Origin: Lingula anatina
Taxonomy: Eukaryota; Animalia; Brachiopoda
DNA: 64,000 bases
Direction of reading: 5' to 3'
Assembly (NCBI GenBank): GCA_051362555.1
Contig: CM120646.1
Location: 7,254,001 to 7,318,000 of the forward strand
Both the position numbers and the translations under genes were made by a program. Under the pieces are notes generated by a model. The model was not told the DNA's origin. It did not search any database and worked only from the letters and a program-made list of their open reading frames with translations. Below, one piece after another: positions 14,586 to 60,696 of the stretch (the first letter of the stretch is position 1; every line of letters begins with the position of its first letter).

Positions 14586-17500
14586 ATGAGGATCCTTGGA
14601 CTTTGCTGTGCTTTGTTGTTATTTGCCATGGCGGCAGCGAAGGTAAGATTTATTCTCATCTCTCTCTCTCTCTCTCTCTCGTTTTTAGAGATGATAAGTT
14701 CATGGTTTTCTCCATCATAATTTGTGTGTTAAAATAAATTTGTTTTTTTTTTATTTCAGCCGTACTCTCTTGGATGCGTAAGTATCTGACGTTTTAATTT
14801 TCTACTTTTATCGTGTATGTATTATGATTTTATTTTAAGCTTTTCTAAATAAATTACATACATGTCGAACGCGATTCCATTTGAGGACAATCCATCTTCA
14901 TCGCGACGCGTCCTTAGCTTCAGAAGCCTAGCAGCGGCTCACCAATGTACGTATTACGACCCTAATATTATCTTCATCGCTAGTTTCTAGAAACTTAACC
15001 GACACACTGACAAAAGAGGTGAGTTCTTCATTTACATTGAAACTCGAGGTGTTTCTCTCAGCGCTGGTGCATGTATCAGTGCGATGTCTCTGTTTTTAAA
15101 ACAGCCACAGTGTAAAAAGCCAGGTCAATTTTCTGGATAATAGGTGGCACTGAATTCCTAGTTTGCTAAGTGTGAGATGTGAGTTGTTATTTTTTGATAA
15201 ATAATTTAGATTATCAATAAATATTAAACGGTTACAGTATAGTGACCTCATCTATGATAAATTACGATCATGATATTACGTAACTGATGAGTTGAGGATT
15301 TTTTTTTAATTTAATGAAATTACGATCTATATGTTACGGTAACAAGTGAAATTCATGTTTGTCTCCATTACGAGCGTGACTGAAAAACTAAGTATTGAAC
15401 CTATCAAAAACACGTTTATGGATCGTAATCATGAGAACGCTTTTGGAGATGGTAGAGCTTGTATACGTTGGTGATAACGGGAAAAGTATCGAAATATCCA
15501 CGAAAATGAGACATTTGTTATATAGAGTTCATTTTATGCCTTTAACTTAATCTGCTCTCTCTGCAGGAACTGGCATGCCCTACCGGACAGAAGTGCGTCT
15601 TGCAAAAAGAAAAGTGTTACGCTCCGCACTGCCCTCTGGTGCCCACCTGCGTCGATGATCCTTGTCACGTAAGTGTACCCCATATGCTGGCTCTCGCGCT
15701 TGTAAGTTATGTACATTAATTAAACGTGTAATAAAAAATAAAAGAAACTTATCGCAAAAATCGAGAAAATGGAGCAGAATGTTTAATTATCGCGTGCGCA
15801 CACACCGGGTTTCAGTTTGAATACATTTTGACAAGAAGTAAAATGCATTTCTTTACTGGTATGGCCGTTTATAATTATTTGGAGCAGGCACATGCATTTG
15901 CAGTCAACAGTTAGGGTAACACGTAACATATAACACCAATTTAAAGAAGCCAAAAGATGCATATTTAATTAATATTCTACGGAGGTGCATATGTTTTCAT
16001 TTTAGGACTGCAACGGCGTTTGCGTATCTGACGACTATTGCGATATGCCGTGTGTCATAAACTGCACGTGTATCCCCCACTCAAACCAAAAAGCTGGATG
16101 TGAGGTGAGTGGCGACATCTTTAGTTTAGTCAGCGTGCCTATCAATAGATAAAACCAGAGTCCAATGATAAGCGGGTGGTTTATTCAACATCTTTACCCC
16201 GTTCGGTTACGAGCCTGTCATAGTTATTATATTATTATAGATCTTTCTGACATTTTTATCGTTTGAGTGATAATGATTTCTTTTTTTCCCTGGTTGGTCA
16301 AAACATTGGCGATGACGTCATTGGTCAATCTTTTGTTTGGAGATGTTTAATGTTATAATTTATCAGGCCTGAAATTCACAGATACTGTGTATATATGCTG
16401 AACAAATATATAAACGCACGAAACTAAAATGGTCAGTTGAAATGGACAATCATAAATTATGCTCAGGTTGATGGTTCTATTGTGAATTGATGGATTTGTT
16501 TTGATCAAGTATAGTGGTCTGGTTTCACTTGGTCGCTCCCCGTGAGTATGCTCAAAGGCTCAGCTATTCCACCCATAAGATTAATGGAGCATGACGGAGT
16601 GAAAGTCAATCTGTATGACCAATACACAGAAAAAGTGTGCATATTTGTCACTTGTCAACATGCCACAGATGTCCGAAATCATGAGGGAGCGTGCCATCGG
16701 CATGCTCAATACTGGCTTGTTGGTAACAGAAGTTGCAGCATGCCTGAATGTGCTTCATTCCACCGTCAGCCATCTGAGAACACACTTCAGAGACACTGGT
16801 AGCACTAGGAACCGCCCACATGCCCCCAAACCACGTGTTACCACACCCAATATGTCGACCATTGAACACCTGTTGGATGTTCTGGATCAACGTTTTCACC
16901 ATCATGTTCCAGCTCCAGGGAATGTTCAACTGCGGGTAGCACTTCAGAAGGAATGGGATAATATCCCTCAGGCCACTATTGACAACTTAGTGATGCCCAT
17001 GCGCTGCCAGTGTACTGCTCTGTGCGCAAGCTGATGGTGGCCATACTTGTTATTAGTGTCTGATGTGAACTCAGGATGTTGACCCCCATAGTGTAGTTGA
17101 TGCCCTAACTCATAATACAGTACAGGCAGATGGTCATCCTCGGCGTAATACAGAACATTTTAAACTGAAAATAAAACTGCGAATTTACATATACTTTTGC
17201 AGAAAACTTTAAACTGTGAAATGCTTCTTCTTTATATCTGCAGGCAATATTGTGTGCGCAGGGTAATGTTTGTATCGAGGATGAAAATGGTGTGGGCGAA
17301 TGCGTTGCAACTTGTCAGGTTTGTGTTGTCGTACCCTTCGATATGGGTCTCCAAAGTTTGTTTCAAAATTGAATTAACATACATTTGATCAATTTTGTAA
17401 CAAACTACACACACCCCTTTCGGAAGTTAGTGTTACTAGAGATAACCGTGAGGTAGATTTCTGATACATCTTGGCTATCTGGAATGTCAAGCTTATCCGT

Positions 17501-20500
17501 TTCTTAATCTATTAATTATTGACGTAAATTATTCATTGAGTGATATATATCTTAACGTGGAATTGCATTATCATATTTTAAAAAAATCTCAATTGCTTCA
17601 TTGAATAATTAATTAACTACAGTAGCAACATAGCTGTCATTTGACATTGTCGTAATTTAAAGTGATAATGTTTCCTTTTTTCTTGTTGGTGCCGTTGCTC
17701 AGTATTATATTTTTTCAGGCCTCAAATTCACAGATTCTGTATGAAATGTGCACAATGCATTATGGCAAATTCTGCAGCTTCTATGAAGACAATGCAATGA
17801 AAATAAAAATAACCTATTTAACAGTTGTACGCTATCACCATGAGCTACATGGGGTTGATATCTCAGTTTCTTAAATCTGCAGGTTATATTGTGTCCTGAG
17901 GGTGCTATGTGCGTAGAGGATGAACAAGGAGCAGGCGAATGCGTACCAACCTGTCAGGTTTGTATTTATTTACCTTCCGATAGATGTCTCTGCAGTCTGT
18001 AATAAAATTGGATAAAATGCTTTTAGTGTTACTAGAGATTGCCTTGAAGTAAATGTCTGATACGTCGCCTTGCATAATCATATTAGGATGTACATGTGCT
18101 GCCATATACAAGGGATACTCTTGTCTAGACCAATGTCTAAATTTTGTTAGTGAATTTTCACTTCCAGATGGTTGACTGCCTCCCTGGCTACAAATGCGTT
18201 GATACTGAATATGGTGCCAAGTGCGTGCAATATTCATGTATGGTATGTGTTGTAAAATTTGTTTTGAGGAATATTATATCCGTGGTAACTGACGTTATGA
18301 GTTACTTACATGTGAACACTTGATAAAAATGTCAACCATCAAAACATCAATTTGATATCTTAGTTTTTCAAAATATCTATACGGAGGGGGGGTGGGGGTG
18401 TTAACAATATTCCACATCAATCAAGTCGCGAAATTTAGGGATGGGAAAATACTTGGTTATGTCTCGTTTCGCTCTTTATGTATTTCCTTTTTTTTGGAGG
18501 GAGAGGGTTGAAAATAACGCAGGACCACCTTAATAGTGAAGGTAGGAGGGGGGGCTCGTCTTTTCCCCATTGACATGTAGAATTAATAATACTATTTCGT
18601 TAATTAGGTAACGGGTTGTCCGTATGGGGAGATGTGTGTACCATCCAACACGACTGGAGACAAATGTGTACCCACCTGCGAGGTATGTGAATATTTTATA
18701 CTCGGACATTTGTTTAATACCATTTATGAGAAATACTGATAGATCGAACGCGTTTGGAAAATACAAAAATAAAAAATAGATTTTAGGAGACTTTATATAG
18801 ATCGGATTTTTGCATTTATATATCTTTTGTTTATTGAAAATATTTAATTTTTAACTTCTTTGTAAATAAATAAATGGACGATACACGGCTCTACGGGGGA
18901 AGTAACCTTAAACTGCATTTTAAGCCACGTGTCTAAAACGTGTCTGACTATGGGATCGTTAAAATCTGCACATTTCGTCTTTTATTTGTTTCTTTAAGAA
19001 AAAGAATTGTACAGATTATCAGTACTGCAAAGATACTCCAATGGGAGGCGTGTGCAACGACATCATATCCTGTGACGTAAGTGGAGAAACTACTTTCTAC
19101 CAACCATGTTCTTCTCTAGAGTCATAGTGTAAAAACATTACCATAATATTATAGTGGTAAAAAGTGATTCATTTCTAAAGGATAATTGTGTGTTCCATAT
19201 GACGCCCCGACCCTTTATTTAAGGACCGTGATCAAATTTACATTGAACACAATTTACTTTTATATGCAAGAGACAAAGAAAAAATATTAAATTGCATTAC
19301 CTTATAGTTTACTAATGAGCAGAAAAAAATTACTAAAGCCCCAAGCCATCCCATATATCCTTGGCCAGCTTAAAGACACATGATTTTGTTGCTGAATATA
19401 TTTGTTTTGGATCTACATGGATTTTGTTGCTAAATATCTTTGTTTTGGATCTACGTGTATGTTTATCTTTGACCTCATTCATTATTTTCAAAGCTGCTTG
19501 TTGATCAGTTGTATAAAATTCACAACAAACTAACACTGAAAATGTATCTATCTATCTATCTTGCAATACTTTTGAAAGAACAATAAAATGTACAGAATAT
19601 ATGAAATACTCATATGATTGTCATACATGTTTCATTCGTTTTTCTATTTCGTACCTAATATTATAATTACCCTGAACATTACCCGCAATAACTTCTATCT
19701 CAAATTTTACTACTCAGTTCATTGACTGTCCATATGGAATGAAATGTGAAGAGGACGACTATGGGCAAGGAGAATGCGTACCAACCTGCAAGGTAAGAAA
19801 ATATATTACTTTATCTTAGCATTTATTTGAATTTTTGCCATGTACGAAGAACGACTTCAACTGATTTTGTGACAGCTGCAGGCTTTATAAACGGCTTAGG
19901 CGTTTCTAACTACCCGCAGATCTTTTAGCACTAACACCCATATTAACGTACCACATAACCCACGAATAAAGAACACACCGTAAAAGTATTCAATACTAAG
20001 AAAGCGATTCCTAGCACATTCTGCTATGGTAGTGCTAAATACGTTTATGGTGTGTTAGTTAATTCGTGGGTTATGAGGGTTAATATGGGTGTTAGTGCTA
20101 AAAGATCTGGAGATAGTGTTAGTAAACGCCTAATCCGGTGATAAGACCTGAACAAAAGCACCCTGGTAGAGAGTAGCTAGTTAGATGCCTTTACTGTCAC
20201 TGGGCACACTATGACAACACTACAATACAGGCATATTCACAGCTTATCATGCCATCACAGAGAGGCCAACTCGTAAAACAAGTTTAATGGTCACACTTGT
20301 GGTGGATAAGGTTCAAAGTTGTCCCGTGTATTAGATGCTTAGTATTTAAATTTTAATGACATAATTTAATTTTTATGTTAGCAGCCCTAATGGATTATTT
20401 ACTCAGATAATACAAAAGATAAATGAAGTACGGTATATATCATGCAACTTCCAGTATAACATATAAACACCAAACACCAAAAAAGGCACTAAAATGACGA

Positions 20501-23500
20501 TTAAAAAGTCAAGAAAAGCTGGTATCGTTCCCTTATGTTATCAGTGATAGTATTCACATACTTTATAACATGCCCTTTTAATGCCCTTTTAATGACCTTA
20601 CCCTTCATATTTTCTGGAACTTTCATTTTTATATAGAGAATTCTATTTTGTTTATTAGATAACTGGTTGTCCATATGGAGAGAAATGTGTCTCTGTGAAC
20701 ATGGAACACGTATGCATACCTACGTGTGAGGTACGTACATTTTATCTTATTATATATATATAATAAGATATTTGTCAAAAGTAAGAACCGTCTGACCAAA
20801 AATATCAATCAATACACTAAGCATGTTTGGAGGAAAATTCAAGAAAGGAAATTGAAGGTCTTTTTTGAAAATGATAGCACCTCTTCATGCAGTTATGCAG
20901 TATGTACGCCCTATTCATGCTGCACAAATAAATGTCAATAGATTCTGGTGTGTTTTCTGTCAGAACAATCTAACAAGTACTGTGGAATACGCAAATCTTA
21001 CCATGAAACCAGGGAAAAACTTGATTGTTGATATAGGAATCGATTTCTCCACAGATAGCCAATTGCACCGAGTACCAGGAATGCAATGACACCGATTACG
21101 GTCCCCAGTGCTACGATGTCGATCCTTGTGACGTAAGTAAAGAAAAAATTTGCAAGGATTTTTGCTAATGCAATATATACATGTATTACACGCCCAGTAT
21201 TCTATAGTTACTAGAGTCAACTAATGGATAACCTGAATGAATGTTATGCCTTAGTACATTTTACATTTTTCTACCAGAGCCACAAAGAAAATTTTGCAAC
21301 CAATGTTCACAGTTATGTATCTGGCTGTGTGCACATTTCTATATACCGAGAACTTCTGACCAAAGTTGACGTTAACACTCAACTGGCGTCTTGTAAAAAG
21401 CACTTTTGACTAAACATAAGTACCGTATCTTAATTTGGCCATGTTTCCCTTGTCTTGTTGTCTCAAGAAAAAAATACCAACAAGCAGTTAAAATATTTAT
21501 CAATTATGTTACCAGTCGATTGCATTACTGCAAAATTACAAAACAAGTTTAACATCCAATTATCAGCATCAAACAAAAAAATAAAAATAACCTTTCGTCG
21601 ATGCAAAAATTGTGATGTTCACTTTAACACGGTGATGGGCATTTCCACCAAAGTGGCAGTCTCTACACTAATGTATATACAGTAAAATAACAAGAAATAC
21701 CAAATGATTTGAACAACGCTTGTTTCATTATAACATGGTCGGCAAATAAAATAAGTTTAATTGTTTCCAGAAAATTATGTGCGAGAAGCACTACAGGTGT
21801 GTACCGAATGAATACGGTCCACCAATGTGCATACCTACCTGTAAGGTAAGTAGTAAATCTCTCTCTCTCTCTGAACCGTGCCTTACGGGTTCTTTGGACA
21901 GGGGCTGTTGTGACGAAATTTGTATTTTGCACCAGCTTTCTTCAACTTTGGCATTCATGACAAATCTCTACCTGGTCAAATCAGCAATGTTCCATGCCTC
22001 TTGTTTTGGGTTTAGTATGCGTAGTAGATGTTGGGAACTTACACTGTTTTAGCCAGTGGTTGATGACAACATGGTCATCATTTTCATTTGGGCCATGCAG
22101 TTTGTTGATAACCAGCGTTGCCCTCCATTTAAGTCGTGCACATATTCATTATTACATTCATTTTGCAACAACAGTGAAGACTATATGCCTTAATTATACT
22201 AAAATATTGTAACTCCTTTAAAAAATACGAAGATATCAATCATCCAGCTAAATTCTTAAGTGAATATACAAGCTTTATGATAGGGACCTAGTTGTCTTAT
22301 ATACATGTAGTTTTAAATGTTGAAGTACTTACATTTTACTGTCGATTATTCCTCCAGTTGATAGAATGCCCGCCTAATTATAAATGCAAAGAAGATGACT
22401 ATAGTTACAAGTGTGAGCCCACATGTAACGTAAGTAGTTTAGATATGTATTTCTGATTTGACTGTCATAAGGGACGTTATGTTAACTAAAATTACGAGTC
22501 GACTATACATAATTTCACGATGGTACTTTTCAAAATTATAAAAAGAGCTTATATGCCCAAAGGCAATTTCCACGCATTTTAGTAATGTAATCTACCTTTT
22601 CAATTGTTTTACATTTTGTATGATCGGTATGATTTCATTTTATTTTCAAGTTGACTGGCTGTCCCTTCGGAGAAGTGTGTGCACCTACGGGTCATTGTGT
22701 GCCTACCTGCGCGGTTTGTATACGCTTCCATCTTTAAAAAAATTTGCCCAATCCAATGCAAGTTCTCTATCGAGTCGACTGTACATAATTTCACGACGGC
22801 ATTTTTCAAAGTTAAAAAAAAAACATTTAAAAAACAGTGAAAGCACTTCAAAATATTAATGTCTTTTCAGTAAACCTGTCAAATTTTAAGTAGTGGGTGA
22901 CGAGCGGCAACCTATGTAAACTGGGTCGGTAGACGAATTTATCAAATTTATCAGATCCACAGTGTAAGCGATCTTTTATTCAAATATAAGAGCAATAACG
23001 TTTTTCAATTGGCCAATTGCAATTTTGCAACACTCTAAGCCAATGCTGTTTTTTTTTTTTTTTTTTCATTCGAATAAAGATTCAAAATCAGGGTCCGTCG
23101 CTCTCATTTTCCATTTTATCAATTTGGTCTATCATGAAGTGGTTTTATTCATTTCGATTTTTAAATCTCATTTTAGAACACAAATTGCAGCAATTCACAG
23201 GTTTGCATCGATACCCCAAATGGAGGCATGTGCGAGGACCCCACCTCTTGTGACGTGAGTGGACAAACAATTCAATCCCTTGACAAGTATTATTAAAAAT
23301 TAGTCTCGTTCTTATCAGTGGTATAATACAATTCACATTTCGGGCATTTAAAAGCTTTAACATTGAAAATAATCCACATATATAAGATATTAGAACCTGC
23401 CTTAACTTCTAAGGTTTTTTTTAAATCTCAAACGTGCGATTTAGCCCTGTCGCCATTTGCTTATTCGTGTAATCATCCTTTTGGACATACAGTGCAACAA

Positions 23501-23802
23501 GCTGTAGGTGCTGCAGTGTGTGTATCCAGGTACGCGCACTAGACCTTTGACTTCATTTCAATGTACATAAACGGTTCTATCTACAGCAAATCACATGTCC
23601 ATATGGAGAGAAATGTGTGCTGCAAAAGATGATGTGTAATGTCCCCTACTGTCCCATCGTTCCCACGTGCGTTGAGGACCCCTGCGCCGTAAGTGTACTG
23701 GGAATGCTGTTACATGATGCTTAAATGTAAATTAATATTGTGAAAGAAAAATCCAAATGTATCATTATTTACTTGCACATCTGAACCTCTGTGATGGATG
23801 GA

Positions 23803-23849
<47 letters not shown>

Positions 23850-26800
23850 TCCAAAATTTTGAAAGCCTTAGAGGTTCACGGAAACACAATGTTGAGATTT
23901 GAACTACCTTTTGACCATAAGGTGTTCCAGCATTGAGAGTGTTATTTTTCCAACGTTTTGGGGCAGGGTATATTACGTTGATAAAGTTAAAATTATTCTA
24001 TTAATAAGATGTTTATTTAAGGGTCTAATATTCACTGTGCACCTTTAATTTTGGGCCTTTACATTCATGTGTTTCTACAGAAAACGTTAAATTTGTCAAG
24101 GTTAGTTTATCTTCAAGATAAAAGTTCCAGGAGATTTCTTTGTTTTAACTTCAGGGCTGCAAAAGTCACTGCACATCAGCTGACTATTGTGAATCCCCGT
24201 GTAATCTTAAGTGTATGTGTGATACACCAACTCAAACTTGCGAGGTAAGTGGACACGGTATGAAAGATCCCGTGCAGCAATATACAGCTTATCTGCATGG
24301 AACGATTCTTGGTCAAGTATTTGACGTGCTTTCTTCATTTAATAAACTAAATAAATTTGAACTTAACTAATGAATTTCTATTTAAATTGCATACTAATTA
24401 GTGTTTTCTATGAGCCTAAAGCACTTCCTGGCATATTGGTATTTCTTACAAACATTCTTAAATTTATGTTCACAATTATGACTTAGAATACTTTCTATCC
24501 AATAATTTCATAGATAAGCTCTACTTGGATATATAAATACTGGTTATGTATAGGTACGGCTTATGATTATTTGTACTTCAGGATATCGAGTGTATGCCTG
24601 GCTTCCAATGTGTTGATGGTGCAGATGGGGCAAAATGTGTCAAAATAACATGTGACGTATGTAATGCAATAACGATATACATTTCCTACAACGTGTTATT
24701 TGTCGATGGAACCGCATGTTGTTTACTCTTCGAATTTTTTACCTTTAGGAAATATTACTGGAAGTTAGTGAACATGTATATGTAGATAAAAGTAATAATC
24801 GAATTCATACACATTCATCGTGTACTTCATGTCGCTGCTTTCAGACGCATAGACATTGTGAATTTTGTTATATTATCTTTCAAGATGATTGACTGTTTGG
24901 ACGGTTATGAATGCGTTGAGCATGAAGACGGCGTCAAATGCGAAGAAATTAAAGAAATAACATGTGCGGTAAGTGTTTTTTTTTTTTAAGAAATGTGGTA
25001 TGATTGCAAAAGAGATATGTATATGTGTATGTACATATGTCATGGTAGAAGCTGTCATCTATGAAGACCGTCGAGTATGCAAATGAAACGCAGGCTGGAG
25101 TTTCTGTGGGTTTGGTTCTGCGATTCTTTTGGTATAAAGTGACAAATAACCGTTCCACACAGGGGGTCTGGAAATTCCCTTTAATCCTGCGATAAACGTC
25201 GATATTTGGATGGATATTTGGATAGATGTATAGCTATTTGGATGTTTGGATAGTTGGATATTTTAATTGCTAGATGCTGAATATTTTTACTTTTGTTCCA
25301 TGTAAACCATTCTATGTACATTTCTTCTTCTTCTGTGACATTGTCTATGTAGAACACATGGGAACATACCCTCCCTTAGCCTTTGCCTCTTCTCCCTCAT
25401 ATAACGATGAAACGAGCGCGGATTTTTTTAAGTTTCACAATACTGGTGAATCCAGGGTTTTGCTAAGGGCACAATGATAAAATAATTGAAAAGTGGAGCA
25501 AGAGAAATATTTTACAGTGCAATGGGTCAATTTTACTGTTATATGTATGGCGACATTTGCTTAGGGATAGACTAGGCTTGGCTTGAGTTTTCTTGTGTGG
25601 TTGCTTTTCTTGTTTTCAAACCTTGCCTATACTTTCACTTTTATATTGTTCCATTTGTTTATATCAGATGATGCCGTGCATGGACGGTTACAGATGCTTG
25701 GATACCCAGTATGGCAGCATATGTGTCGAAATGACTTGTGAGGTAAAGGCCGTAGTAAATTACATTTCATGTAATATGTGTTTGAAAACATAACTATGAT
25801 GTTAGTTACACTGTAGTAAAATACACATCATGTAATATGTTCTTTTAAACATGTTTGTGATGAAAGTTACACTGAAGTCATTATCATAGTTTTAAATTTC
25901 CAGTTCGTTAAAAAAAGTAAATAATATTTTTAAAATTCTGAAAGAGAACGTCAATCAGTCAAGTTACTTAAAAGCAAACCGAAAAATCCTCTCTTAAATA
26001 GATAAACGGCAAGATATTTTATGAGCTGGTAGTTGCAGAGAAAGAAGGTGTCTGGAAGATCATAGCACTCACTTTTTCATCAATGTAATGCTGTGAGATT
26101 GCCATAACAGATATAAGACACACTTACCTGGCCTCTCAAACGATTCTTAACTTATTCAGGACGTCCAGTGCCCTAATGGCATGAAGTGTGTTGCAAATGG
26201 GAAACCTAAATGTGTATCGACCTGCATGGTACGTATGCCTAATATGATATACTGAGTATGTGCCATTTACTTTAGACATTACGCATTTCCCCCATGCAAG
26301 CCAAATGATCTGTCAAAAAATATAATGAAATCGGTAGACTGACGCATTTCGCTGTTTTTACGTTCAGATTAGACCACAGAATGCATACAGGCGTATACCC
26401 TAAACCAACATATATTCATTTAATGAACCTGTGACAGAATAGCCAATTTGAAATGTATGGTTAATGTATTTGCTGGATTATTATTATTATTATTATTATT
26501 ATTAGACTATGCAATGTAACGGTACTCATATGTGTAACGACACTGACCATGGAGCCGTCTGCGTGGTTCCCCCATCTTGTGACGTAAGTGGAAACAATTT
26601 TTTTCACCAGTAATGATATTCAGAAACTTTGGTTTTGTCTGTTTTAGTTCATTCTAGTGGCATGATATAGTTCAACGCATTACTTGTTTGAAACGTTCTT
26701 CTCGGTAATTAATTACAGGGGACTGAGGACATTTGAAGATAAATTGATAAAAATGGTCAAAGGGATCATGCCCCTTCTGGGTCCCTTACGGGCAGTGTAC

Positions 26801-28797: not shown

Positions 28798-28799
<2 letters not shown>

Positions 28800-28856
<57 letters not shown>
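28800..28856. repeat. (TA)n microsatellite
   Basis: Read directly. Another lies at ~44779-44841. Confidence 0.95.
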
Positions 28857-30448: not shown

Positions 30449-30707
30449 ATGATGACAACGTTGATACCATGCTTTGTATTGCTGAATATCAATTTGGCTT
30501 ATGGACTGGTAAGTTGTTAAAGACGGATCATGTGTGACCGCTGACAAAAAGCCCTTGTAATGTTGGTCGTTGTAATACCATATGTATTTGTTCTGCAGTG
30601 TACAAGATGACGATATATGAAACCATATTTTTGATAAGACACTATATATCCTTTTTATTTGTAACGGAACTACACGTATGAACTACTTTTTTATCTCTCT
30701 CTCTCTA

Positions 30708-30755
<48 letters not shown>

Positions 30756-34384: not shown

Positions 34385-34421
<37 letters not shown>

Positions 34422-43723: not shown

Positions 43724-44776
43724 ATGATGACAACGTTGATACCATGCTTTGTATTGCTGAATATCAATATGGCTTATGGACTGGTAAGGTGTTAGAGACG
43801 GATCATGTGTGACCGCTGACAATAATGTAATGTTGGTAGTTGTAATCTCAAGCGTATTTGTTCCGCAGTGTACAATATGACGATATGTGAAACAATATTT
43901 TTGAAATGAAATTATATATCCTGTTTGGTTGGAACGGAACTGCACGCCTAACTGCCCTTTTAACTGTATTTCTCTCTCTCTCGTTCATCGACGCAAAAAG
44001 TGAAGCTGAACACAATTTGTTTGCTTCAGTCCTGTGTCAATACAGGCGCAAAAAAATCACGAAAGTTAATTAACATTTCCTTATACGCGTGCATTTCTTC
44101 TTTAACATTTTTAATTTACATTTATCACTTATTTTTCCCAGGCTCGTGTTGGTGACTGCGTAAGTACTACGTTTTACAATCTATTTTAATCATAACCATT
44201 CATCTCCCTTTTTTGTTGAATATATATCATTTTCGTGTAATCTATAATTTTTAAAAGAATTTTGCCAATAAGCTTGTTTTTCTCTTCCCTTTGTATCATT
44301 AACTGAAAATATATACTAGCACGTACGCATATAAATTTAATCAGCCGCTACAGTATGTGCTGGTATTAATGCAGTTGCATTATTCACAATAGGTATTATG
44401 CAATATTGCACATGGAGTGTATTCCCGCATTAACACAACCTGAAGATGTTACTGATAGAGTTATATAAGTGTATACTAGAGGACACATGGTTTTTAGATA
44501 AGTTTTCAATATATACTGGTGGATTTAGAGAGGGGTCAGAGGGGTCCTGACCCCTTCGATTTCGGAAAAAAATCACACCAATATTCCCCCTTTGAAATAA
44601 GAATTTTGACTAGTTGAACCATAGTTCTAAACCATACCAAATGTCAGTGTTCGCCCTCTAAAAGACCAAAATTTGTTGGAGCCCTTCAGCGGGCTTTGAA
44701 CTCCACGCCGGGGGGCGGGGGGGGGGGGGGTTGGCTTTGCATCCGCGCCATCCCCTTTCAAATAAACCTGGATCTT

Positions 44777-44843
<67 letters not shown>

Positions 44844-50800: not shown

Positions 50801-51012
50801 AGCAAAATAACATTATATTGTATTTCTGTTAAGTCAAACCAGAGAAGCCTTGTCTCAGAAGTGACGGGAGGTACGACAATCCTCTGCTTGACAGTAATGG
50901 TGATCCGATCTGCTGTGGTATGTGCCTGAACAAACAGGAGTGCCCGAAGGGTTACTACTGCGACATTCACCCTGCTGATGCTTGGGCTGTGTGCTGTCCG
51001 AATGAAGTCTAA
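43724..51012 (+). CDS. Paralog B: secreted FOLN-like/Kunitz x2/Lustrin protein (291 aa, 8 exons)
   Basis: Exons 43724-43783, 44142-44159 (ARVGDC), 46471-46564, 47002-47174 (Kunitz, [10 protein letters not shown]), 47664-47754, 49952-50124 (Kunitz, [10 protein letters not shown]), 50385-50472, 50834-51012. Exon lengths are identical to A and splice sites are intact. Confidence 0.9.
44835..45740 (+). repeat. Local intronic duplication (~540 bp offset) in paralog B intron 2
   Basis: ttgaaaacttgt...caagattgaaatactcccactataattccccc...gtaccacaa occurs at ~44841 and ~45383. Confidence 0.75.
45807..46020. mobile_element. Small TIR element nested in another MITE
   Basis: Termini aagcctagatac / gtaatctaggctt. 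Confidence 0.55.
48029..49616 (+). mobile_element. Degenerate Tc1-like transposon in paralog B intron 5
   Basis: TA|cagacgtgacatttaatatggaatattt ... aaatattccatattaaatgacaagtctg|TA, with relic motifs RPLRKPLL and [12 protein letters not shown]. The site is empty in paralog C (~58826). A right-end fragment recurs at ~61436-61578. Confidence 0.8.
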
Positions 51013-51402: not shown

Positions 51403-51437
<35 letters not shown>

Positions 51438-52368
51438 CTACACAAATGCCTAAGGCGCCTTTAATTAAATGGGGTTAGCTTCACCTTTCAAAATAAATAA
51501 ATGTGATTATTTCTTGTAAATCCATATGTTATATCATTGGAAAAGGTATTACATACAGCAGAATCTTGTAGTCACTTTGTTTTAATAAGTCAAATAAGCT
51601 AGGGTATTCTACATGTATGAAGATTTGTTTTTCAGTTTCTGCAACTGTCCCAACAGCTGCAATATTTTATCACATTTCTTGATCTGAAAATAAAGCTTTT
51701 CCTTTAAACTGTAGTTTATGATTTACCAGTAAATACAAGGCTAGCCAATACTTTATCAGACGCTCCTACGAAATTTAAATGTTGTTTGCACAGCAGTAAA
51801 ATGTCCAATTTGCAGCTACCTGTATATTTTGTTAGGCATATTGGACGAATCATGTTGAAAATAAAATTTTGCTTTACTTCTTCAGGACATGTGTTTTATT
51901 TCAACGTGCTTATTTAACCAAATTAATCCATTAACTTTTTGGCATAAAATCTTCCAAGACATAGTATCGTGTGTTATTTTCTTGCATTTTTAAGGATGCA
52001 AAGAAGGTGCGTGGCAGCAACGGACCAAGATATACGAACATGTTTCATATCAGATACATATACATTCATGTATCTAAAAACAATGATTATGCAAATAAAG
52101 CCCAATACAGACTTTGAAATCCATAATAGGATAACAATCAGATATGTCCAAAATATAAAGCTGAGCAATCTTAAAACTTCGTCATCACAATTTTTTTCCA
52201 TCAGATACACGTGAAAGTTTCTGAAATTTTTTTATTTGTGAAAAACAATATCACTTTTTCAGGCCAGTCACACTTCAGTGTACATTTAGACAGCAAGAAT
52301 ACTGTCCTTTGGTGAATTATATGTTCGCAGTTCAGAGTGTATATTTGGTCTGCAGAGTCAAATGTTCT

Positions 52369-52464
52369 TTACATGAGGCATGCATTCTGACAGCCTGCCA
52401 AAGTTTAAACCCATTGGCCTTTCCTCCACATCCCGCGTAGACGGACAACTCACACTGGCAGCTG
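52369..52464 (-). pseudogene. Fragment of the minus-strand Kunitz terminal exon captured by the tandem duplication
   Basis: The reverse complement reads CQCELSVYAGCGGKANGFK/LAGCQNACLM* with a frameshift. It and its flank are homologous to 63266-63360. Confidence 0.85.
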
Positions 52465-53107
52465 TAGATGCGCATGTCCTAGGTCTCCCTTTACTAGGAA
52501 CGCATGACCTAGGACATAATTCAGTGGGATTTTAAGTCCTGCGGACATACAATACAGAACACACAGTGAAAAATTGTGTATACGCTTATAGATGATAATT
52601 TACTTTCTTGTAAGGAATTTAACTCCTGACAAACCAGTATAATGCAAAATCTGTCAGTATTAGTCATGTTTTTGCGACGAACACGCATACGGGTTTCCAT
52701 GTCCTTATCTGCATAGAAGAACAGTGCCAAGGTCACATTCAGCACTTCTAGACCAATAAGAGCGTACACATTCTCTCAGTGACGTACGGTAATAAAGGAA
52801 TGTTCGAGACGGTTTGTTCACACAGGCTCCACACAGAAGAAAAGCAATTGGCAGCGAGGATCAAAATGATGACAATGTTGATACCGTGCTTTATATTGCT
52901 GAATATCAATTTGGCTTATGGACTGGTTAAGTGTTAAAGACGGATCATGCGTGACCGCTGACAAAAAGCACGTGTAATATTGCTCGTTGTAATGTTAAAT
53001 GTATTTGTTCTGCAGTGTACAATATGACGATATGTGAAACCATATTTTTGACAAGCCATTATATAGCCTGTTTGCTTGGAACGGAACTACACGTATGAAC
53101 TGCCCTT

Positions 53108-53138
<31 letters not shown>

Positions 53139-54552
53139 ATACACAAAAATCCAAGCTGAACACAATCTGTCTGTTTTAGTCCGGTGTCAATACATTTTAC
53201 GAAAGTTAATGAACATTTCCTTGTTCGCGTGCATTTCTCCTTTATCATTTTAATAAACATATGTCACATCTTTTTCAAGGCTCGTGTTGGTAACTGCGTA
53301 AGTACTACGTTTTACCATTCATTTTAATCATAACCATTCATCTTTTTTTTGTTGTAATTTGTCATTTTCATGTCAATTATTATTTTTGAAAGAATTTGCC
53401 CTTAGCTATTTAGTCTGTTTATCTCTTCCTTTTGTATCAGTAACTGTACATTTATACCAGCACATACTGCATGTATATATATATATACCGCTGCCGTATG
53501 TACTTGTATAAACGCTGTTGAATTATTCACAACAGATACTGTGTAATATTCCGCATGATGTGTATTTCCCATTAATACAGCCTGCAGATGTTACTGACAG
53601 AAAGGGTAATACCTGCATAAGTGTATAATGGAAGACATAGTTTTCAAACAAGTTTTCAATGTGTTGAAGTATATACTGTATATATATATACTGTGTGAGT
53701 GTGTGTCAATGTTTTTTTAAGCTTCTCAGGAAATTTGTCTCTTATAACAAGAGGTCCAGAAGTTTCTTCCCTAATTTCAGTCAGGATGTCCCCTCTTTGT
53801 TTTTCACACTTAGACTGCATTCCCAAAGATTGAGATCGGTCCATCTAGATCGACCTAACTCCCTGGGGGTTCACTCTAAATTGATGTCAGCCGAGCGCGC
53901 ACGGTAGTAAATTACCCCCTTACAGCTTTTAGTAGGCGGGACAGACGCTTAAGCCGACTAAGCTGACAGTAATCTAGTGGGACTCCCTACAGGGATAGAT
54001 CGATCTAAAATCTGTGAGAATGGAGTATATGACTTTAATTGCTTAGAGCCAGATGTGTCCGAGAACATATCTGGCCTTCTCTGGTCGTAGGACATATCGG
54101 GTCGTCACAACAGTGGCTAATTAGCCTCTGTAAATCAGCTAAGCAGAGACATACGAGTCCAGTTCCACAGAGGAGACGGAGGGCTCTCTCTCACTTCTTC
54201 AGAAAAATTCACATTGTTTAGTAGTTCAGTGTTCAGGAAAGAAAAACTTAAATGTGAATTTAGGAAATTTATTCAAACACATAAATCAATGTTTTCAGAC
54301 GGCCATTGAGTGTCCTAAAGGAGAAACTTGCTTTCAAGATGTGGTAATTTGTAAGAAGCCACCATGCTGCGTCCGTGAGTGAAATATAAAATGTTAAACA
54401 TTAGACAGCTTATATGGATGTGAATGTTAGACAGCTACTAGAAACTAGTAATTGTAATGATAGAACCTATTTATATTGTTTTGGATAGTTTGGAAATGCA
54501 ACAAATGATATCATACCTGTTTGTTATTTAAGATAAACCAAGCACACACATA

Positions 54553-55714
54553 CAGACGGGTGACGTACATATAATTACTCTACGTGTTTTTCGGTTTATT
54601 TCTCGGTTTACCAGAGATGAGTTTTCATCCATGTGTACTATAAAAGGTGCATCCGAAGGTAAAAGGTTCTTTTAGCTGTCACGTTGCCACCATGGTGAAG
54701 GAACGGGAGCTCACAAATGAAGAAGGAAAGAAATTGTTTCTCTAAGGGAAGAGGGTATCAATGTTACCTAGATAGATGCCATATATGGTGTAACTCCTCG
54801 AACTGTGCATTTTGATTGCAGAAGGATGGAGGACATTGGTGATGCCCATAAGTTAGACCGAAGTGGCCGCCCAAGGGACGACAGGCGCCTTTTTATGCTG
54901 TCAAGGCTAAGGAGGTTTGAGCCGTGCAAGGAATTAGCGTTGCAGTGGTTGCGCAGTTTGCAGGTTGAGGTTAGCAAAAGAACTGTACAAAAAGGCTCCA
55001 TGCTTCAGGTATTCACAGCAGGGTTGCCAGGAGGAAGCCATTCACCACCTGGATAAACATACGCGGAAGAGTGACATTGGATGCAAGAACCATTGCCTGG
55101 ACAGTAGGTCAGAATTGTTGCCATTTTTTTTCTGACGAGTCCATATTCACAGTTAACAGCGTGGGTGGACAAGTGAGGGTACGGAGAAGATCATCCACTT
55201 GTCGTCTACCAGAAAATATGTATTTCCTCACTAGACAGGCCACTTCACTAATGGTTTGGGGCTACATTGGTTTCTACGGTGTTGGTGAGCTTGATAAATG
55301 GAAAGTTGAATCACCAGCGATACATAGAAATTCTCGACTGGCAGGATGTTGAAAACCAAGTGGCAAAGGATCGCCTCTTTACCAGAAACGCTCCAATCCA
55401 AAGTGCCTTTAGAGCCTGGGCCAGCATAACCCCCAGAAGTTTAATGAACCTTTATCAGTCTATGCCTAGAAGGATGGTGGACATATTGAGATCACGTGAC
55501 TATCCAACAAAATATTAATCCTGACATAATAGCATGTGTTATGTAAAGGCAACGCACTGTTCTTTAAACCTAAAATAAAAATACTTACTTGACACAGTCA
55601 GTTTTCAATAACATGACAATTGAAAAAACTAACTAATCCAGCTGTTTTTCCCCTTAAAGAAAAAAGGTGCAATACTTTTGCCCCCCTCACCCCCCCTCCC
55701 CCCCCCCCCCCCCG
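54553..55714 (+). mobile_element. Degenerate Tc1-like transposon in paralog C intron 3
   Basis: Fragmented transposase (RSGRPR, FFSDESIF, LMVWG, LYQSMPRRM...YPTKY). TA on both sides, and the site is empty in A (~38299) and B (~46689). Confidence 0.85.
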
Positions 55715-57038
55715 TACATATTTATATATACTGGAACCTAAGACCTTCGCTGTAAGCGATACAGTTAATTTCTCAGTAAAAACAAATCCATATTCTTAAA
55801 AAGGAAATGTTCCCGTCTTTCACCAAGGCAAAATCCAATATGCAGCGTTTCTTGAAACGATTATCTACTCAGATACATAAGAAACGAATTTTGTGTAACT
55901 AAGCAATTCTCCGATGTCAAGTCATTTCTCATGACTAAGTATCAAGAAATATGCTTGAAAAGACATAGTTGGATTCTCCTATATTTTATATATATATATT
56001 TTTTAATTTGTTTTTATCGTATCTTATTTATTTATCTATCTTTATCTTATCGTAATTGTTATGTTCACAGCTATATGTACGGACCCTGTAGATCCCGGTC
56101 CCTGTGAGTACAGCATCCCAAGGTACTTCTTCGACAGCAACGACTGTCAGTGTCAGAAATTCATCTACGGAGGCTGTGAGGCAAACGCCAATAATTTCGT
56201 AACACTGGAGGAATGCCAAAAGACTTGTCCTGTAACGTATGATGTAAGTGTATGATGTTGTCTTTATAAAAGTACGTGACTTAAACATGTATATGTACGT
56301 CTTCATTTATGCGAGGACATCTAATAGAGTCTATCTATATAATATTAGATTATAGTTCGCCCGTGCAGGTAGGGATAGAGAAAGTGCATAATAGATTTTG
56401 GTACTGTATTTTTAAAGTTTCAGTGGAAGTGGCTGTTTTGATCAATTGAATGACACTTAACCACTCTAGGTCTAGGACAAAATCAGAAAATGAAACATAG
56501 CATTTAATCGTAGCGTTGAGGCATTTAGTAGTGGCAGAGGCCAAAGACAGCTAATACATTAATATATAGAGAAGAGAGGAGAACATTGTATCGGTTACGT
56601 TTACCTTAAATATTAAGTTAAAACATTTGAATTATCTTGGACCCCTTTAACGCAAGGATATTATTGCACGTATTAAAACACGTTTCACTGACTCGCACTT
56701 GTAGTTGTGATCTTTTAACTATTATTATTCAGCATATAAAGTGCCCTGACGGAGAAACTTGTGTCCTGAACAGAGATGTCAATTCAGAATCGGTGTGTGT
56801 GCCGCCACGGTGTGTACGTAAGTGATCCAGTTCGGGAAGATACACTCATGAGAAAGGCAGAGAATAGACAAAGTTTTAATCATTTTATTTCTTTATATAT
56901 AATCATTTTAAAACACAAGCTAGAATGTCTTCATACTGTAGTATGTGGTAAAGCGTCGTCGTATAATAGCCAGGGCCTTTTAGCGGTCAGTAACTCACAC
57001 ATCAGTCTGATGAAAGCCTAAGTCCTGGTTGGCCATAA

Positions 57039-58522
57039 TGCCCCTATTTCACACAGAACACGAATCCCTACCCTGAGTGTCTGAGCTACGTAAAAGCTAG
57101 CTTCTTAAATATACCTTATGAAGGAGTCGCTTTTACTAGCTCTGACGAACATCGACAATCTGAGGGCTTTCTTCTACAAAATTTTGCCTGGGGCGCTTCC
57201 AAATTTAGAAGTCACACGTCACAGCTGTGTCCGCCTGGATCCATATTTGGAAGTCATAAGTCTCGTACGTCACAGGTTTGGCCGCCTGGAGCTGCCTTTC
57301 CCGCCTTGCGCTGAAGTTATCTCGTGCAGACGAGACAATAAGCATTTTTAGTGCCTGGCGCGGACTGAATTGAAAATATCATGCAGTCAAAGGTCAGTGC
57401 CACAATACAAGCAACATTCTGCTTTAAAAACTGATTTTGGTGTAGCCATTGCGCAGCCCTTCCCGCATGAAAATGCAGTAGTATCGAAGTAGCAAAGAAG
57501 CATTAACGCAGTAGTGGTGTGGAGCATATTTGCAGTAGAAATGCAGTATAGCCTACTGCAATTCTACTTCAAAAATAACCTAGGGTTGTACAGAGGAGGA
57601 GCATTAATGCAGTAGATTAGCAGCATGATAGAAGCATGTTTCAAATATGCTAATTAGCTCCCCTATCGAAGCAGATTTGAAGCATGTTTGCAGTATGATT
57701 GCAGTAGTCTACTGCGCTGGAGTATCTACTTCGTTTTCGTGCGGGTTATAGTGGTATCGGGCATACAGTGTAGCTGTCAAATTTGGCACACGGCAAGCAC
57801 GTGTATTGTGGTAGTGTATATCTCAGGACTTAATGTTCTTTGATAAGCAAAAAATACAAAACATTGGATATATCTTTTCTTTTCGAAGAATATTACTTAT
57901 TTTTTCACTTTACATCTTAAATACAGCAAATAAAATTTTAAAAAGCAGAATTAAATCTGTTTTACGTTTCATATTGGTCTGATGACATTCAACTGCAGAT
58001 TCACTGCGGAGCAGTTCTATTTGATTGACGGAAGGGCAACATGGCCGCTGTTCACTACAGCCGGTATTGTTGATATGGGTTATATATGAAATCAAGATCG
58101 AGCTGGCAATACCGGAATCTAGAACTTAGGGTACGAATGCCACGAATCGCCAGGAATTGACAAAGTTCAGGATTCGTGGTTGAATCGTAATCAGTTCGTG
58201 AAGTTCTTAACGTATATAATCGTAGTCAGTTCTTGCAATTCTTGATCAATCGGGAATTCGTGGCAAACATTTTGAGCTGTTCAATATTTTGGCCACGAAC
58301 TCCCGATTCCAAATAATCGTAGTGAATTTTTGACAATATTCGTGCGATTCCAGCCGAATCCCACGAACATTCGTAACACTGTCGCACCTGTATCGTAACT
58401 GAATCGTAGAGCGTGTCGAATTAGGCCAGAAAATTTGCAAAATCTCACGAATTCTCACGAATCCTGAAATTTGTCAATTCCTGGCGATTCGTGGGATTCG
58501 TGGTCTGTGTGAAATAGGGGCA
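57039..58522. mobile_element. Non-autonomous PIF/Harbinger-like element with TAA target duplication, with a nested MITE at ~57460-57747
   Basis: TAA|tgcccctatttcacacaga ... tctgtgtgaaataggggca|TAA, with CACGAAT/ATTCGTG subterminal repeats. The inner element has ends cccgcatgaaaa / ttttcgtgcggg. Confidence 0.8.
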
Positions 58523-58700
58523 TAAGGTTACGGTATGAAAACTTACGGCTTGTGTTTCATAATTATCATATTTGATCAACTACCAAGCTAATGGACATTT
58601 TTCATTTTTTATTTCTTAACTTAGAAAATAGATATTTTAATATGTTAAAACAATAATAGACATTTTGATATCTTATAATGCTTTACACGTGAACCATTCT

Positions 58701-58731
<31 letters not shown>

Positions 58732-60696
58732 CGAGTGCTTGTTCAGCATGTAATGTATAAAAGATATCAAATATTTAAGTTTGATGTTGTACGCGAACGT
58801 TTTCACATATTATACATTGTTCGCAATTCAAATGGCAAGTGTCACACTGTGAAATATGCTTCCACTTGATGATATGTGTATATAATACATAGGTGCGAAC
58901 CCACCTTTCTTTGTTCACCTTTTTCTACCCAGCATTCCTCTAGATCATCCTGGAAATGTATTTTAAATATGTTAAAACAGACTTAAAATATGTTACTCAA
59001 GATCAAACAACTTACATGGTCATGATATGAAGTTGTAATGTCCCCTAACTGTTACCTTAAATCTTTATTACATTTTGCAAGGCCCAAGATGTCACGGTAC
59101 TTGACGTAAAAATATGTATTCTTATTTACGAAAGACAAAGAAAAACGTAAGCAAGAAAGTGAAAAAAATCAAACTTTGGTATCAGGTTAAAGACATCCCT
59201 TGATTCTTACATACATGTAGAGCATTCTCTTTTCTATCTGCGTGAAGCCTGCATGCCAAGATATTTTTATAACAGCACTGTTGGACAGTGTCAAAAGTTT
59301 ATCTACGGAGGCTGTGGAGGAAACGCCAATGATTTCGAAACACTGGAGGAATGCCAAAAAAACTTGTAACCTAACATTTGAATTAAGTCGGATTTTATTA
59401 ATTAATTAATTAATTATGTTATTTATTCATTTAATGCATCTCTGATTCTTCACATTTATTTCTTTAGTTTTGTGGAGGGAATGTGGGGGAAATTTTTCCT
59501 GTTGGAAAATCCTAAACAGGCATGCCCAAAGATGTGTCGAAAGACTTCTAGCTTATTAAAAAATATCCTTTTACCTGGTTCGATCCTTCACCTTTGTCAC
59601 TACGGTATAAAACCATTACCTGATTGAAGAAAACAATCTCTCATTAGCTCTCTCTATAATTTTGTTTGTTTTTTGTTATTAGAACTTAGAATGTCCTCTG
59701 GGAGAGGAGTACGTTCAGGAAACAATTTACTGTATCACCTACCCCTGCTCCCAGCCACCTGCCAAATGTGGTAAATTTTATAATCCTCCCCTTTTCAAGA
59801 CACCGGAGGTACATGTCTCGCTTGAATATATTTGGGGTTGCTACTTTATATAGTCAGTATCTTCGTGTACATGTACTAGTACCTTTGTAAGTATAGTTAT
59901 TAAACGCACACCCCCATTTAATAGCGTTGTCTTCAGATTTTGAATTGAAATAATACGTACAATGAAATACATTTCATTCTCTTATCATTGCTGTATAGGC
60001 TATGTGTGTTATCGTTTGTTTTCACCAACCTATTTTTATCATCTTATAGTGTGTGCATATTGCAACATCACAACTTGCCAAGCAAACTTCATTCGACAAA
60101 TAACATAATTTTGTATTTCTGTTAAGTCGAACCAGAGAAGCCTTGTCTAAGAAGTGATGGTAGGTACGACGATCCTCTGCTAGCCAATAATGGTGGTCCG
60201 ATTTGCTGTGGCAGGTGCCTGAACAGACAGGACTGCCCGAAGGGTTATTACTGCGACATTCACCCCGCTGATGCTTGGGCTGTATGCTGTCCGAATAAAG
60301 TCTAACAAGGCTCTGTAGACCATATATTATACACTTATATAACCTTTGGTGACAGGGAATCATAATTGTATGACGCGTTTCAGCATTTAGCACGTTCTCC
60401 TTTTAAAGCGTTAAGCTTTTTCTTACAATTTTGTATTTTTTTTAAATTATTATTTTAAGGAGTTTCCCATTAACCACCTTGATCTAGGATATCAAAACTG
60501 TGCACAGCATTGCCGTCGAAAAACGTATTGTGTCTCATTCGGGCATTTTTTAAACGGAGACAGCAGCTGACGAATCTCACTTGTAACAAGATAAATTACA
60601 AATTTAGAACTCGAAAACGGGTGCGTAAATTGTTGTTTCTGCAACTTTAACATGGTATACCTATGTGATGAAGGGATGATCGTGAACTTTTTCTTG

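What the first reader, a model, noticed from the sequence alone, without database searches (positions are those of the whole stretch)
14586..60305. One gene chassis, two payloads: the FOLN-array gene and the Kunitz paralogs are the same modular family
Seen: both gene types have a phase-0 signal exon, an 18-nt micro-exon ending in Cys (PYSLGC vs ASVVDC/ARVGDC), extended modules of the form CPxGxxCVQ...C...C...P.CV, and a phase-1 last exon EKPCxR...CCGxC...AVCCP. In A, B and C the Kunitz exons (phase 1 to 0) end in the connector PVTCD (PVTYD in C) and pair with a phase 0 to 1 module exon, which makes a two-exon symmetric cassette repeated twice. Inference: a Kunitz exon was recruited from neighbouring Kunitz genes (the 63266-63432 exon also starts in phase 1 with x-I-C-E) into the repeat scaffold. 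This looks like exon shuffling caught within one locus.
Basis: partly seen in the sequence, partly recalled or inferred. Interest (0 to 1): 0.8.

Follow-up and report, generated by a model that had tools for sequence, protein, structure and literature searches.

The report
Brachiopod mix-and-match cysteine-rich gene family
A lamp shell (the brachiopod Lingula) carries a cluster of related genes for likely secreted, cysteine-rich proteins that share the same end piece but differ in their middle blocks (a long repeat array in one, protease-inhibitor-type Kunitz domains in the others); they likely diverged by gaining, losing and copying whole exon blocks, a tidy example of a well-known process.

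Summary
Observation largely confirmed; interpretation half right. The window is likely Lingula anatina. Array gene F (25 exons, 673 aa) and Kunitz genes A and B (8 exons, 292 aa) are intact; C is broken. They share a last module and an 8-Cys Lustrin-type end (0 of 2000 shuffles as good). An unlinked Lingula protein, P0010, holds both payloads: F's signal peptide and array, plus a module-Kunitz-module-Lustrin end like A's. So they are one family.

The proposed donor is not an independent Kunitz gene. The 63266-63432 exon has its own module exon 500 nt upstream, so it is another family member, and its synonymous sites are saturated against A. The unit that moved is a module+Kunitz exon pair whose Kunitz exon carries the next module's first Cys. 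It likely predates the split of P0010 from A-C (92/87). Whether F lost the pair or never had it is unresolved. Molluscan proteins mix the same modules. The A-C Kunitz domains have acidic P1 residues. This is ordinary domain shuffling, unusually legible. The scan had not noted this family elsewhere.

The parts
14586..14642 (+). Gene F signal-peptide exon (phase 0); alike to the P0010 signal peptide, not to A's
   Evidence: F-P0010 0 of 2000 shuffles as good; F-A 952 of 2000
14760..14777 (+). Gene F 18-nt micro-exon giving Cys1 of the first module
   Evidence: splicing not seen in reads
15567..26583 (+). Gene F array: 21 phase 0-0 exons (2 extended modules at 15567 and 23587, 2 seven-Cys units at 16006 and 24155, 17 short four-Cys units); each exon ends with Cys1 of the next unit
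   Evidence: junctions 15668>16006, 19076>19718, 21132>21771, 21845>22358 seen in RNA
26981..27077 (+). Gene F last extended module, phase 0 to 1; best F match to the last module of A, B and P0010
27510..27691 (+). Gene F last exon, 8-Cys Lustrin-type domain (Pfam PF14625 18.5 bits, under the cut-off of 27)
30449..30508 (+). Gene A signal-peptide exon, followed by a 7,074-nt intron
   Evidence: reads run on into micro-exon and module 1; same join in P0001
37583..37600 (+). Gene A 18-nt micro-exon
38057..38839 (+). Gene A cassette 1: module exon 38057-38150 (0 to 1) and Kunitz exon 38667-38839 (1 to 0; P1 Asp; one extra Cys; tail gives Cys1 of the next module)
39379..40514 (+). Gene A cassette 2: module exon 39379-39469 (lacks one Cys) and Kunitz exon 40342-40514 (P1 Glu)
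40787..41399 (+). Gene A last module exon 40787-40874 (0 to 1) and Lustrin-type last exon 41221-41399 (PF14625 28.5 bits, over the cut-off)
43724..51012 (+). Gene B, intact tandem paralog of A: exons 43724-43783, 44142-44159, 46471-46564, 47002-47174, 47664-47754, 49952-50124, 50385-50472, 50834-51012
   Evidence: A vs B dN 0.042, dS 0.126
52866..60305 (+). Gene C, likely pseudogene paralog: shortened first module, two Cys-to-Tyr changes, second Kunitz exon (about 59230-59385) without acceptor and frameshifted; last exon 60127-60305 still open
63266..63432 (-).
63933..64000 (-). Gene E extended-module exon, cut by the window edge; phase-1 GTAAGT donor 500 nt upstream of the Kunitz exon; closest to module 1 of A and B
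   Evidence: scores 95 and 93, 0 of 1000 shuffles as good
52181..52459 (-). Broken copy of the 3' half of gene E's Kunitz exon and its downstream flank, left between B and C by the tandem duplication

Best explanation
F, A, B, C, the opposite-strand gene E and the unlinked P0010 gene are one Lingula family of predicted secreted, disulfide-rich mosaic proteins that likely diverged by in-frame gain, loss and tandem copying of whole exon blocks, not by recent capture of a lone Kunitz exon.

Shown: the repeat unit has a phase-0 intron just after its first Cys, so every array exon is a 0-to-0 block, and a module exon (0 to 1) plus a Kunitz exon (1 to 0) is also a 0-to-0 block. Either can be added or dropped without shifting the frame or splitting a unit's Cys set. 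P0010 has F's signal peptide and array followed by module-Kunitz-module-TIL-Lustrin. F matches it with the module+Kunitz pair and TIL absent. A-C match its C-terminal half with the pair doubled and a different signal exon.

Inferred: a module+Kunitz pair of the E type (ending in a stop, as in one whelk protein) gained the Cys tail once, before P0010 and A-C split. Unequal crossing-over in introns then doubled it and copied the gene in tandem.

Inferred function: extracellular matrix or mucus proteins. In A and B the Kunitz domains have Asp/Glu at P1 and would be poor trypsin or chymotrypsin inhibitors, so they likely serve as binding or scaffold domains, or inhibit an acid-specific protease. 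The Lys-P1 domains of E and P0010 would inhibit trypsin-like enzymes.
For: Exon phases and Cys positions.
Last exon A-F: 27 of 55 identical, 0 of 2000 shuffles as good. The CCGxC form is in 5 of 5 family rows and 3 of 88 other rows. The family is one side of a branch, 87/90, in a 28-row tree.
P0010 architecture.
Unit-by-unit match: its first six internal units each have F exons as top hits, consistent with F's order (F03, F04/F18, F05, F07/F19, F08, F09/F16); its pre-Kunitz module matches A/B module 1 (99.5-101.5); its last module matches A/B module 3 (104-109) and F24 (95).
Gene E's module exon.
Cassette tree (whelk,(E,(P0010,A-C))) 92/87. Synonymous saturation E vs A; K1 vs K2 dS 0.88.
P1 residues. 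Acidic P1 binds common serine proteases weakly (PMC9312475, passages). Duplication and deletion of domains by unequal crossing-over, helped by same-phase introns (PMC3927616, passages).
Against: All trees rest on 52-84 columns and no key branch is starred.
Grouping A-C with E is not rejected (p-AU 0.065 and 0.12; 0.095). By raw identity A's cassette is closer to E (52 of 76) than to P0010 (49 of 84).
The Kunitz-only tree does not recover A-C with P0010, and rejects A-C+P0010+E as one clade at p-AU 0.039.
The order of F, P0010 and A-C is open (p-AU 0.43 and 0.59).
E's module scores higher against a whelk module that is not followed by Kunitz (71) than against the one that is (61), which weakens the link to the whelk pair.
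P0010's introns are not known here. No functional data exist, and PMC9312475 itself warns that P1 alone does not fix specificity.
Confidence: 0.62

Rival explanations
1. Local fusion. A-C arose in this locus when the 5' part of an E-type gene (signal, micro-exon, module, Kunitz) recombined with the 3' end of an F-type gene (exon tail, last module, Lustrin). The crossover inside the two exons made the Kunitz exon with a Cys tail. P0010 would be a later recombinant with an F-type front.
For: Both putative parents flank A-C within 50 kb. E's module is closest to A/B module 1 in protein and DNA. A's signal exon is unlike F's. The Kunitz tail resembles F exon ends. A-C+E is not rejected.
Against: The best cassette tree joins A-C with P0010. 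E and A Kunitz exons are saturated at synonymous sites and their upstream introns are no more alike than shuffles (151 and 390 of 1000), so any such event is old. E's 5' end lies outside the window.
Confidence: 0.2
2. One reading: a lone Kunitz exon was recently copied from an unrelated neighbouring Kunitz gene into the repeat scaffold of this locus.
For: Shared phase-1 start and 33-34 of 51 identical residues between E's and A's Kunitz domains; physical proximity.
Against: The neighbour already has the module exon. A lone 1-to-0 exon would break the frame. An unlinked paralog has the same tailed Kunitz. Synonymous saturation. The one truly separate Kunitz gene in the window (5956-6559) has a phase-0 exon and groups with none of them.
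Confidence: 0.06
3. Not one family, only independent assemblies from a common kit of mobile modules, as in molluscs.
For: Whelk, abalone and other molluscan proteins combine the same modules with Kunitz, WAP and Lustrin. The CCGxC Lustrin form also occurs in a jellyfish protein (P0048). No other Lingula Lustrin domain was available as a control.
Against: F and P0010 share a signal peptide and a matching array front; P0010 and A share module-Kunitz-module; all share the last module and last exon, and are each other's nearest rows among 93.
Confidence: 0.08

Closest known systems
Molluscan mosaic WAP/Kunitz/Lustrin proteins (Nucella lapillus ACOMHN_029794 = P0157; Haliotis XP_048258469.1 = P0101; Gigantopelta XP_041353911.1 = P0091; database records)
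   Same: Same short and extended Cys modules, combined with Lustrin and protease-inhibitor domains. P0157 ends in module+Kunitz+stop like gene E, and that module is the best non-Lingula match to A's module 1 (101, against 77 or less for 16 others).
   Different: They are WAP-rich, their Lustrin domains have the usual 6-Cys form, and none has a long pure array or the (module-Kunitz)x2-module-Lustrin order. Their intron positions were not seen.
Nematode Kunitz-Lustrin matrix proteins (C. elegans MLT-11; ZC84.1, the name RefSeq gave P0001)
   Same: Secreted, with Kunitz plus Lustrin domains. MLT-11 has 10 Kunitz and 3 Lustrin domains, acts in cuticle assembly and may be a scaffold (PMC13181417, passages).
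   Different: In the Kunitz-Lustrin repeat proteins fetched here the two domains alternate and my module profiles find no such modules (P0017, P0024, P0067; species not looked up). The Lingula genes have a single terminal Lustrin.
WFIKKN/GASP and papilin (exon-shuffled multi-inhibitor proteins; PMC3427181, passages)
   Same: Mosaic secreted proteins built from Kunitz and other inhibitor modules by shuffling and tandem Kunitz duplication.
   Different: They have WAP, Kazal, Ig and NTR domains, none of which is found here. The classical shuffled unit is a class 1-1 domain (PMC3927616), whereas the doubled unit here is a two-exon 0-to-0 block whose borders cut through a module.
FOLN (follistatin/osteonectin N-terminal EGF-like domain) and the four-Cys hairpin peptide KASH2 (PDB 8V2U; PMC11891777, passages)
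   Same: C-x4-C-x5-C-x(4-11)-C spacing at 21 places in F. The short-unit profile's only PDB hits are KASH2 (E 0.58, a weak lead), whose disulfides are C1-C3 and C2-C4.
   Different: No Pfam FOLN hit and no Kazal partner. KASH2 is a free cleaved peptide, not an array.

Membership tests
One Lingula family (F, A-C, E, P0010) | Homologous last exon beyond shared Cys pattern | tested here: met
   0 of 2000 Cys-preserving shuffles as good; nearest rows among 93; 87/90 branch, not starred. E ends in Kunitz and has no such exon in the window.
One Lingula family (F, A-C, E, P0010) | Last exons group apart from other Lustrin domains of the same genome | not testable with these tools
   No genome held; of 20 proteins looked up, only P0001 and P0010 were Lingula.
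One Lingula family (F, A-C, E, P0010) | Homologous signal exon in F and A | tested here: not met
   952 of 2000 shuffles as good; F-P0010 is met, 0 of 2000.
One Lingula family (F, A-C, E, P0010) | A member that holds both payloads | tested here: met
   P0010, XP_013401614.1; a database model whose exon joins were not checked against reads here.
Kunitz/BPTI (PF00014) | Pfam match over the curated cut-off | tested here: met
   7 of 7 Kunitz exons tested score 59-84 bits, cut-off 21.
Kunitz/BPTI (PF00014) | Canonical inhibitory P1 (basic or hydrophobic; position after the second Cys, numbering recalled from BPTI) | tested here: not met
   Asp or Glu in 5 of 5 intact A-C domains; Lys in E and P0010, Leu in the 6377 exon.
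Kunitz/BPTI (PF00014) | Protease inhibition | not testable with these tools
   Needs an assay.
Lustrin cysteine-rich domain (PF14625) | Pfam match over the curated cut-off | tested here: inconclusive
   A, B, C 28.2-28.5 bits (over 27); F 18.5 bits (under); P0010 no hit. An 8-Cys variant.
FOLN (PF09289) | Pfam match | tested here: not met
   0 of 25 module exons and no hit on joined modules in P0001 or P0010. Atlas clusters in which 61-70% of members carry FOLN score 0.85 at best, a lead only.
FOLN (PF09289) | Four-Cys spacing C-x4-C-x5-C-xn-C (recalled pattern) | tested here: met
   21 places in F, 3 in A, 12 in P0010.
FOLN (PF09289) | C1-C3, C2-C4 disulfides and EGF-like fold | tested here: inconclusive
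   Single-sequence model of P0001 unusable (mean pLDDT 41.6).
Classical class 1-1 exon shuffling | Shuffled domain flanked by two phase-1 introns | tested here: not met
   The Kunitz exon is 1 to 0 and carries the next module's Cys1; symmetry holds only for the exon pair.
Lingula shell matrix proteins | Listed in the shell proteome | tested here: not met
   Accessions of P0001, P0010 and P0133 not found in the supplement of PMC13425148; no Kunitz or Lustrin term in the one supplement file of PMC4595640. F has no known accession to look for.

The most novel reading that the evidence does not exclude
The locus still holds both parents of an exon-fusion event: an E-type module-Kunitz gene and an F-type array gene recombined inside their exons to make a Kunitz exon carrying the first cysteine of the next module. 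That created a new mobile two-exon cassette whose borders cut through a domain, which then doubled and switched its reactive site from Lys to Asp/Glu, with a compensating disulfide between Kunitz 1 and module 2.
Probability: 0.2. Interest if true: 0.6.

Novelty: new variant of a known kind. Interest (0 to 1): 0.36.

Why it matters
Domain shuffling in secreted lophotrochozoan proteins is well documented, and has been reported for Lingula itself (EGF-collagens, PMC4595640, passages), so the process is not new. This locus is useful as a readable case. At least six paralogs show the array only, cassette only, both, terminal pair and decayed states. The mobile block is a 0-to-0 exon pair that straddles a domain, not a textbook 1-1 module. 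It also corrects public annotation: RefSeq fuses A and B into one 600-aa model, attaches C's exons to an astacin, and no record of F's last exon was found. The acidic-P1 Kunitz domains are a small, testable biochemical oddity.

Tried and rejected
- No whole genome is held, so genome-wide Lustrin and Kunitz trees and gene E's 5' end could not be reached.
- The search with F's last exon among longer proteins found nothing at E 0.001 (1 candidate); this is weak evidence that F is unannotated.
- The structure prediction of P0001 without an alignment failed (pLDDT 41.6), so no fold search was run. The 15-row alignment A4 (mean column identity 20%) was too ragged to use.
- PDB profile searches gave only weak hits: KASH2 at E 0.58 and a carboxypeptidase inhibitor at E 0.029.
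- Atlas searches scored under 0.9, so they are leads only.
- The apparent likeness of the introns upstream of E's and A's Kunitz exons failed a shuffle test.
- P0002 (astacin with a family-type end) was considered as a shuffled Lustrin exon and rejected. Its start is intron sequence plus C's last module exon, and its end is half of a last exon, so it is likely a chimeric model.
- The 93-row Lustrin tree did not finish its careful search; the quick tree is what is cited. Rows dropped before it: P0001, P0002, and hits with domain score under 30 or under 45 residues. The 28 rows were picked by hand and include all 3 outside CCGxC rows.
- Co-expression: 4 runs of unknown tissue are too few. F junction rows came from X18 (plus one read in X20); A-type signal-exon reads came from X15, X18 and X20 and carry letters of other alleles or paralogs. 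No RNA holder was listed in the index itself.
- Literature: (Lingula or brachiopod with Kunitz, lustrin, FOLN, domain shuffling, tandem duplication) listed no paper on this family; only the listings and the passages cited were seen.
Full report
Source. A search with A's last exon returned a Lingula anatina RefSeq protein at 98% identity (P0001). Its two halves match my models of A and B at 286 of 291 and 283 of 291 residues, so the window is likely from this brachiopod. No whole genome was held.

Anatomy. A splice-site scan and coordinate models give four plus-strand genes. F (14586-27691) has 25 exons, all introns GT..AG, and 673 codons: signal, micro-exon, 21 phase 0-0 array exons, one 0-to-1 module and a last exon. 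A (30449-41399) and B (43724-51012) have 8 exons and 292 codons: signal, micro-exon, module, Kunitz, module, Kunitz, module, last exon. A vs B gives dN 0.042 and dS 0.126, consistent with constraint. C is the same plan but decayed: a shortened first module, two Cys-to-Tyr changes, and a second Kunitz exon without acceptor and frameshifted. Pfam confirms Kunitz in 7 of 7 exons tested and Lustrin in A-C, while F's last exon falls under the cut-off; no module exon hits FOLN. RNA reads support 4 of F's 24 junctions in one of four runs, and the signal, micro-exon and module-1 joins of the A type in three. The Kunitz junctions were not checked against reads.

The key structural point, shown by the sequence. 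The repeat unit has spacing C-x4-C-x5-C-xn-C, and the phase-0 intron falls just after its first Cys. The micro-exon, the tail of each array exon and the PVTCD tail of the Kunitz exons all supply Cys1 of the next unit. The Kunitz exon is therefore a Kunitz domain fused to a module head. It cannot move alone without breaking the frame, but module (0 to 1) plus Kunitz (1 to 0) is a 0-to-0 block equivalent to one array exon. A's second module is closest to its first, so that block is what doubled.

Is it one family? The last exons of A and F score 166 against 49 for shuffles that keep the Cys positions, 0 of 2000 as high. A's and B's last module pick F's last module as best match among 22 exons. 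A profile of the four last exons, searched against 1.84 billion representatives, gave 129 hits. The only hit that matched nearly the whole profile at a high score was P0010, a Lingula protein on another scaffold. It reads signal, micro-segment, module, 7-Cys-type unit, ten short units, module, Kunitz, module, TIL, Lustrin. Its signal peptide matches F's (0 of 2000 shuffles) and its first six internal units all have F exons as top hits, consistent with F's order. Its pre-Kunitz module matches A/B module 1 and its last module matches A/B module 3 and F24. F, A-C and P0010 are each other's nearest rows in a 93-row quick tree and one side of a branch at 87/90 in a 28-row tree. The extra CCGxC pair is in 5 of 5 family rows and 3 of 88 others. 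Against: A's signal exon is not detectably related to F's, no branch is starred, and no other Lingula Lustrin domain was on hand as a control (2 of 20 proteins looked up were Lingula).

Was Kunitz recruited from the neighbour? The minus strand at the window edge holds the 3' part of a module exon ending in a phase-1 donor at 63933, 500 nt upstream of the 63432 acceptor. It is closest to A/B module 1 (0 of 1000 shuffles). The 'donor' (gene E) is thus a family member ending in module+Kunitz+stop. Its Kunitz differs from A's at 23 of 30 synonymous sites, whereas A's two copies differ at about 15 of 30. A tree of the module+Kunitz pair rooted on a whelk protein gives (E,(P0010,A-C)) at 92/87, but A-C+E is not rejected (p-AU 0.065). 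The Kunitz-only tree of 36 rows resolves neither grouping (p-AU 0.095 and 0.27) and rejects all three together at 0.039. So the tailed cassette likely arose once and long ago. Whether F lost it or branched off before it appeared is open (p-AU 0.43 and 0.59). An old fusion of E-type and F-type genes in this locus remains a live rival.

How old is the kit? Molluscan proteins combine the same short and extended modules with Lustrin, WAP and Kunitz. Of 17 non-Lingula extended modules in the fetched proteins, one is followed by Kunitz (Nucella P0157), and it is the best match to A's module 1. However, E's module prefers another whelk module, so this is a single lead. Kunitz-Lustrin matrix proteins are known in nematodes (PMC13181417, passages). 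Assembly of such mosaics by exon shuffling and unequal crossing-over is established (PMC3427181 and PMC3927616, passages), and domain shuffling was reported in Lingula for EGF-collagens (PMC4595640, passages). Four searches listed no paper on this family.

Likely function (inferred). Signal peptides, 13-16% Cys and no other domains point to secreted disulfide-rich proteins. Mature A and F are acidic (pI about 4.5) and P0010 is basic. All five intact A-C Kunitz domains have Asp or Glu at P1, which binds common serine proteases weakly, though P1 alone is not decisive (PMC9312475, passages). I put about even odds on a matrix or mucus scaffold role with non-canonical Kunitz domains, against inhibition of an unusual protease. 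Kunitz 1 has one extra Cys and module 2 lacks one, leaving 38 Cys in mature A; a bond between the two spare Cys is predicted but untested, as the fold model failed. The accessions searched are absent from one shell-proteome supplement (PMC13425148, passages and supplement searches).

Verdict. A real family, well spotted. The mechanism is block-wise exon gain, loss and duplication from an old kit rather than a fresh local capture of one exon. New variant of a known kind; interest 0.36.

Noticed in passing
window 5956-6559 (+): Separate two-exon gene: signal exon and a phase-0 single Kunitz exon, 80 aa, Arg/Phe-rich, P1 Leu; does not group with the family's Kunitz domains.
   Followed up: partly
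window 40025-40212: Tandem copy of the acceptor and first ~70 nt of A's second Kunitz exon inside the preceding intron; resembles the splice-junction repeats noted elsewhere in this genome.
   Followed up: partly
window 61684-63073: About 1.4-kb insert with 31-nt terminal inverted repeats and decayed transposase-like text, likely a Tc1/mariner element (label recalled), sitting in the flank of gene E.
   Followed up: partly
P0001 (XP_013384770.1): RefSeq model fuses genes A and B by splicing into B's 5' UTR.
   Followed up: yes
P0002: Astacin-CUB model whose ends are intron sequence plus gene C's last module exon, and half of a family last exon; likely a chimeric annotation.
   Followed up: partly
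P0131, P0132 (isoforms of P0010); P0133: Isoform X3 lacks exactly two array units (49 aa) in frame, as the 0-to-0 exon logic predicts; a second partial copy of this gene lies on a third scaffold.
   Followed up: partly
window 30508 (loose ends): Reads from the A-type signal exon continue into micro-exon variants that match none of A, B or C exactly, hinting at further paralogs or divergent alleles.
   Followed up: no
window 15567-16104 and 23587-24244: Internal block duplication in F: the extended module plus 7-Cys unit pair occurs twice (score 140).
   Followed up: partly
window 1090-5026 and 31400-36100: Two complex satellite regions with direct and inverted copies; the second fills much of A's 7-kb first intron.
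   Followed up: no
P0048 (Rhopilema esculentum): A jellyfish Kazal/WAP protein carries the same rare CCGxC Lustrin form and sits near the family in the tree at 89/87: convergence or an old variant.
   Followed up: partly
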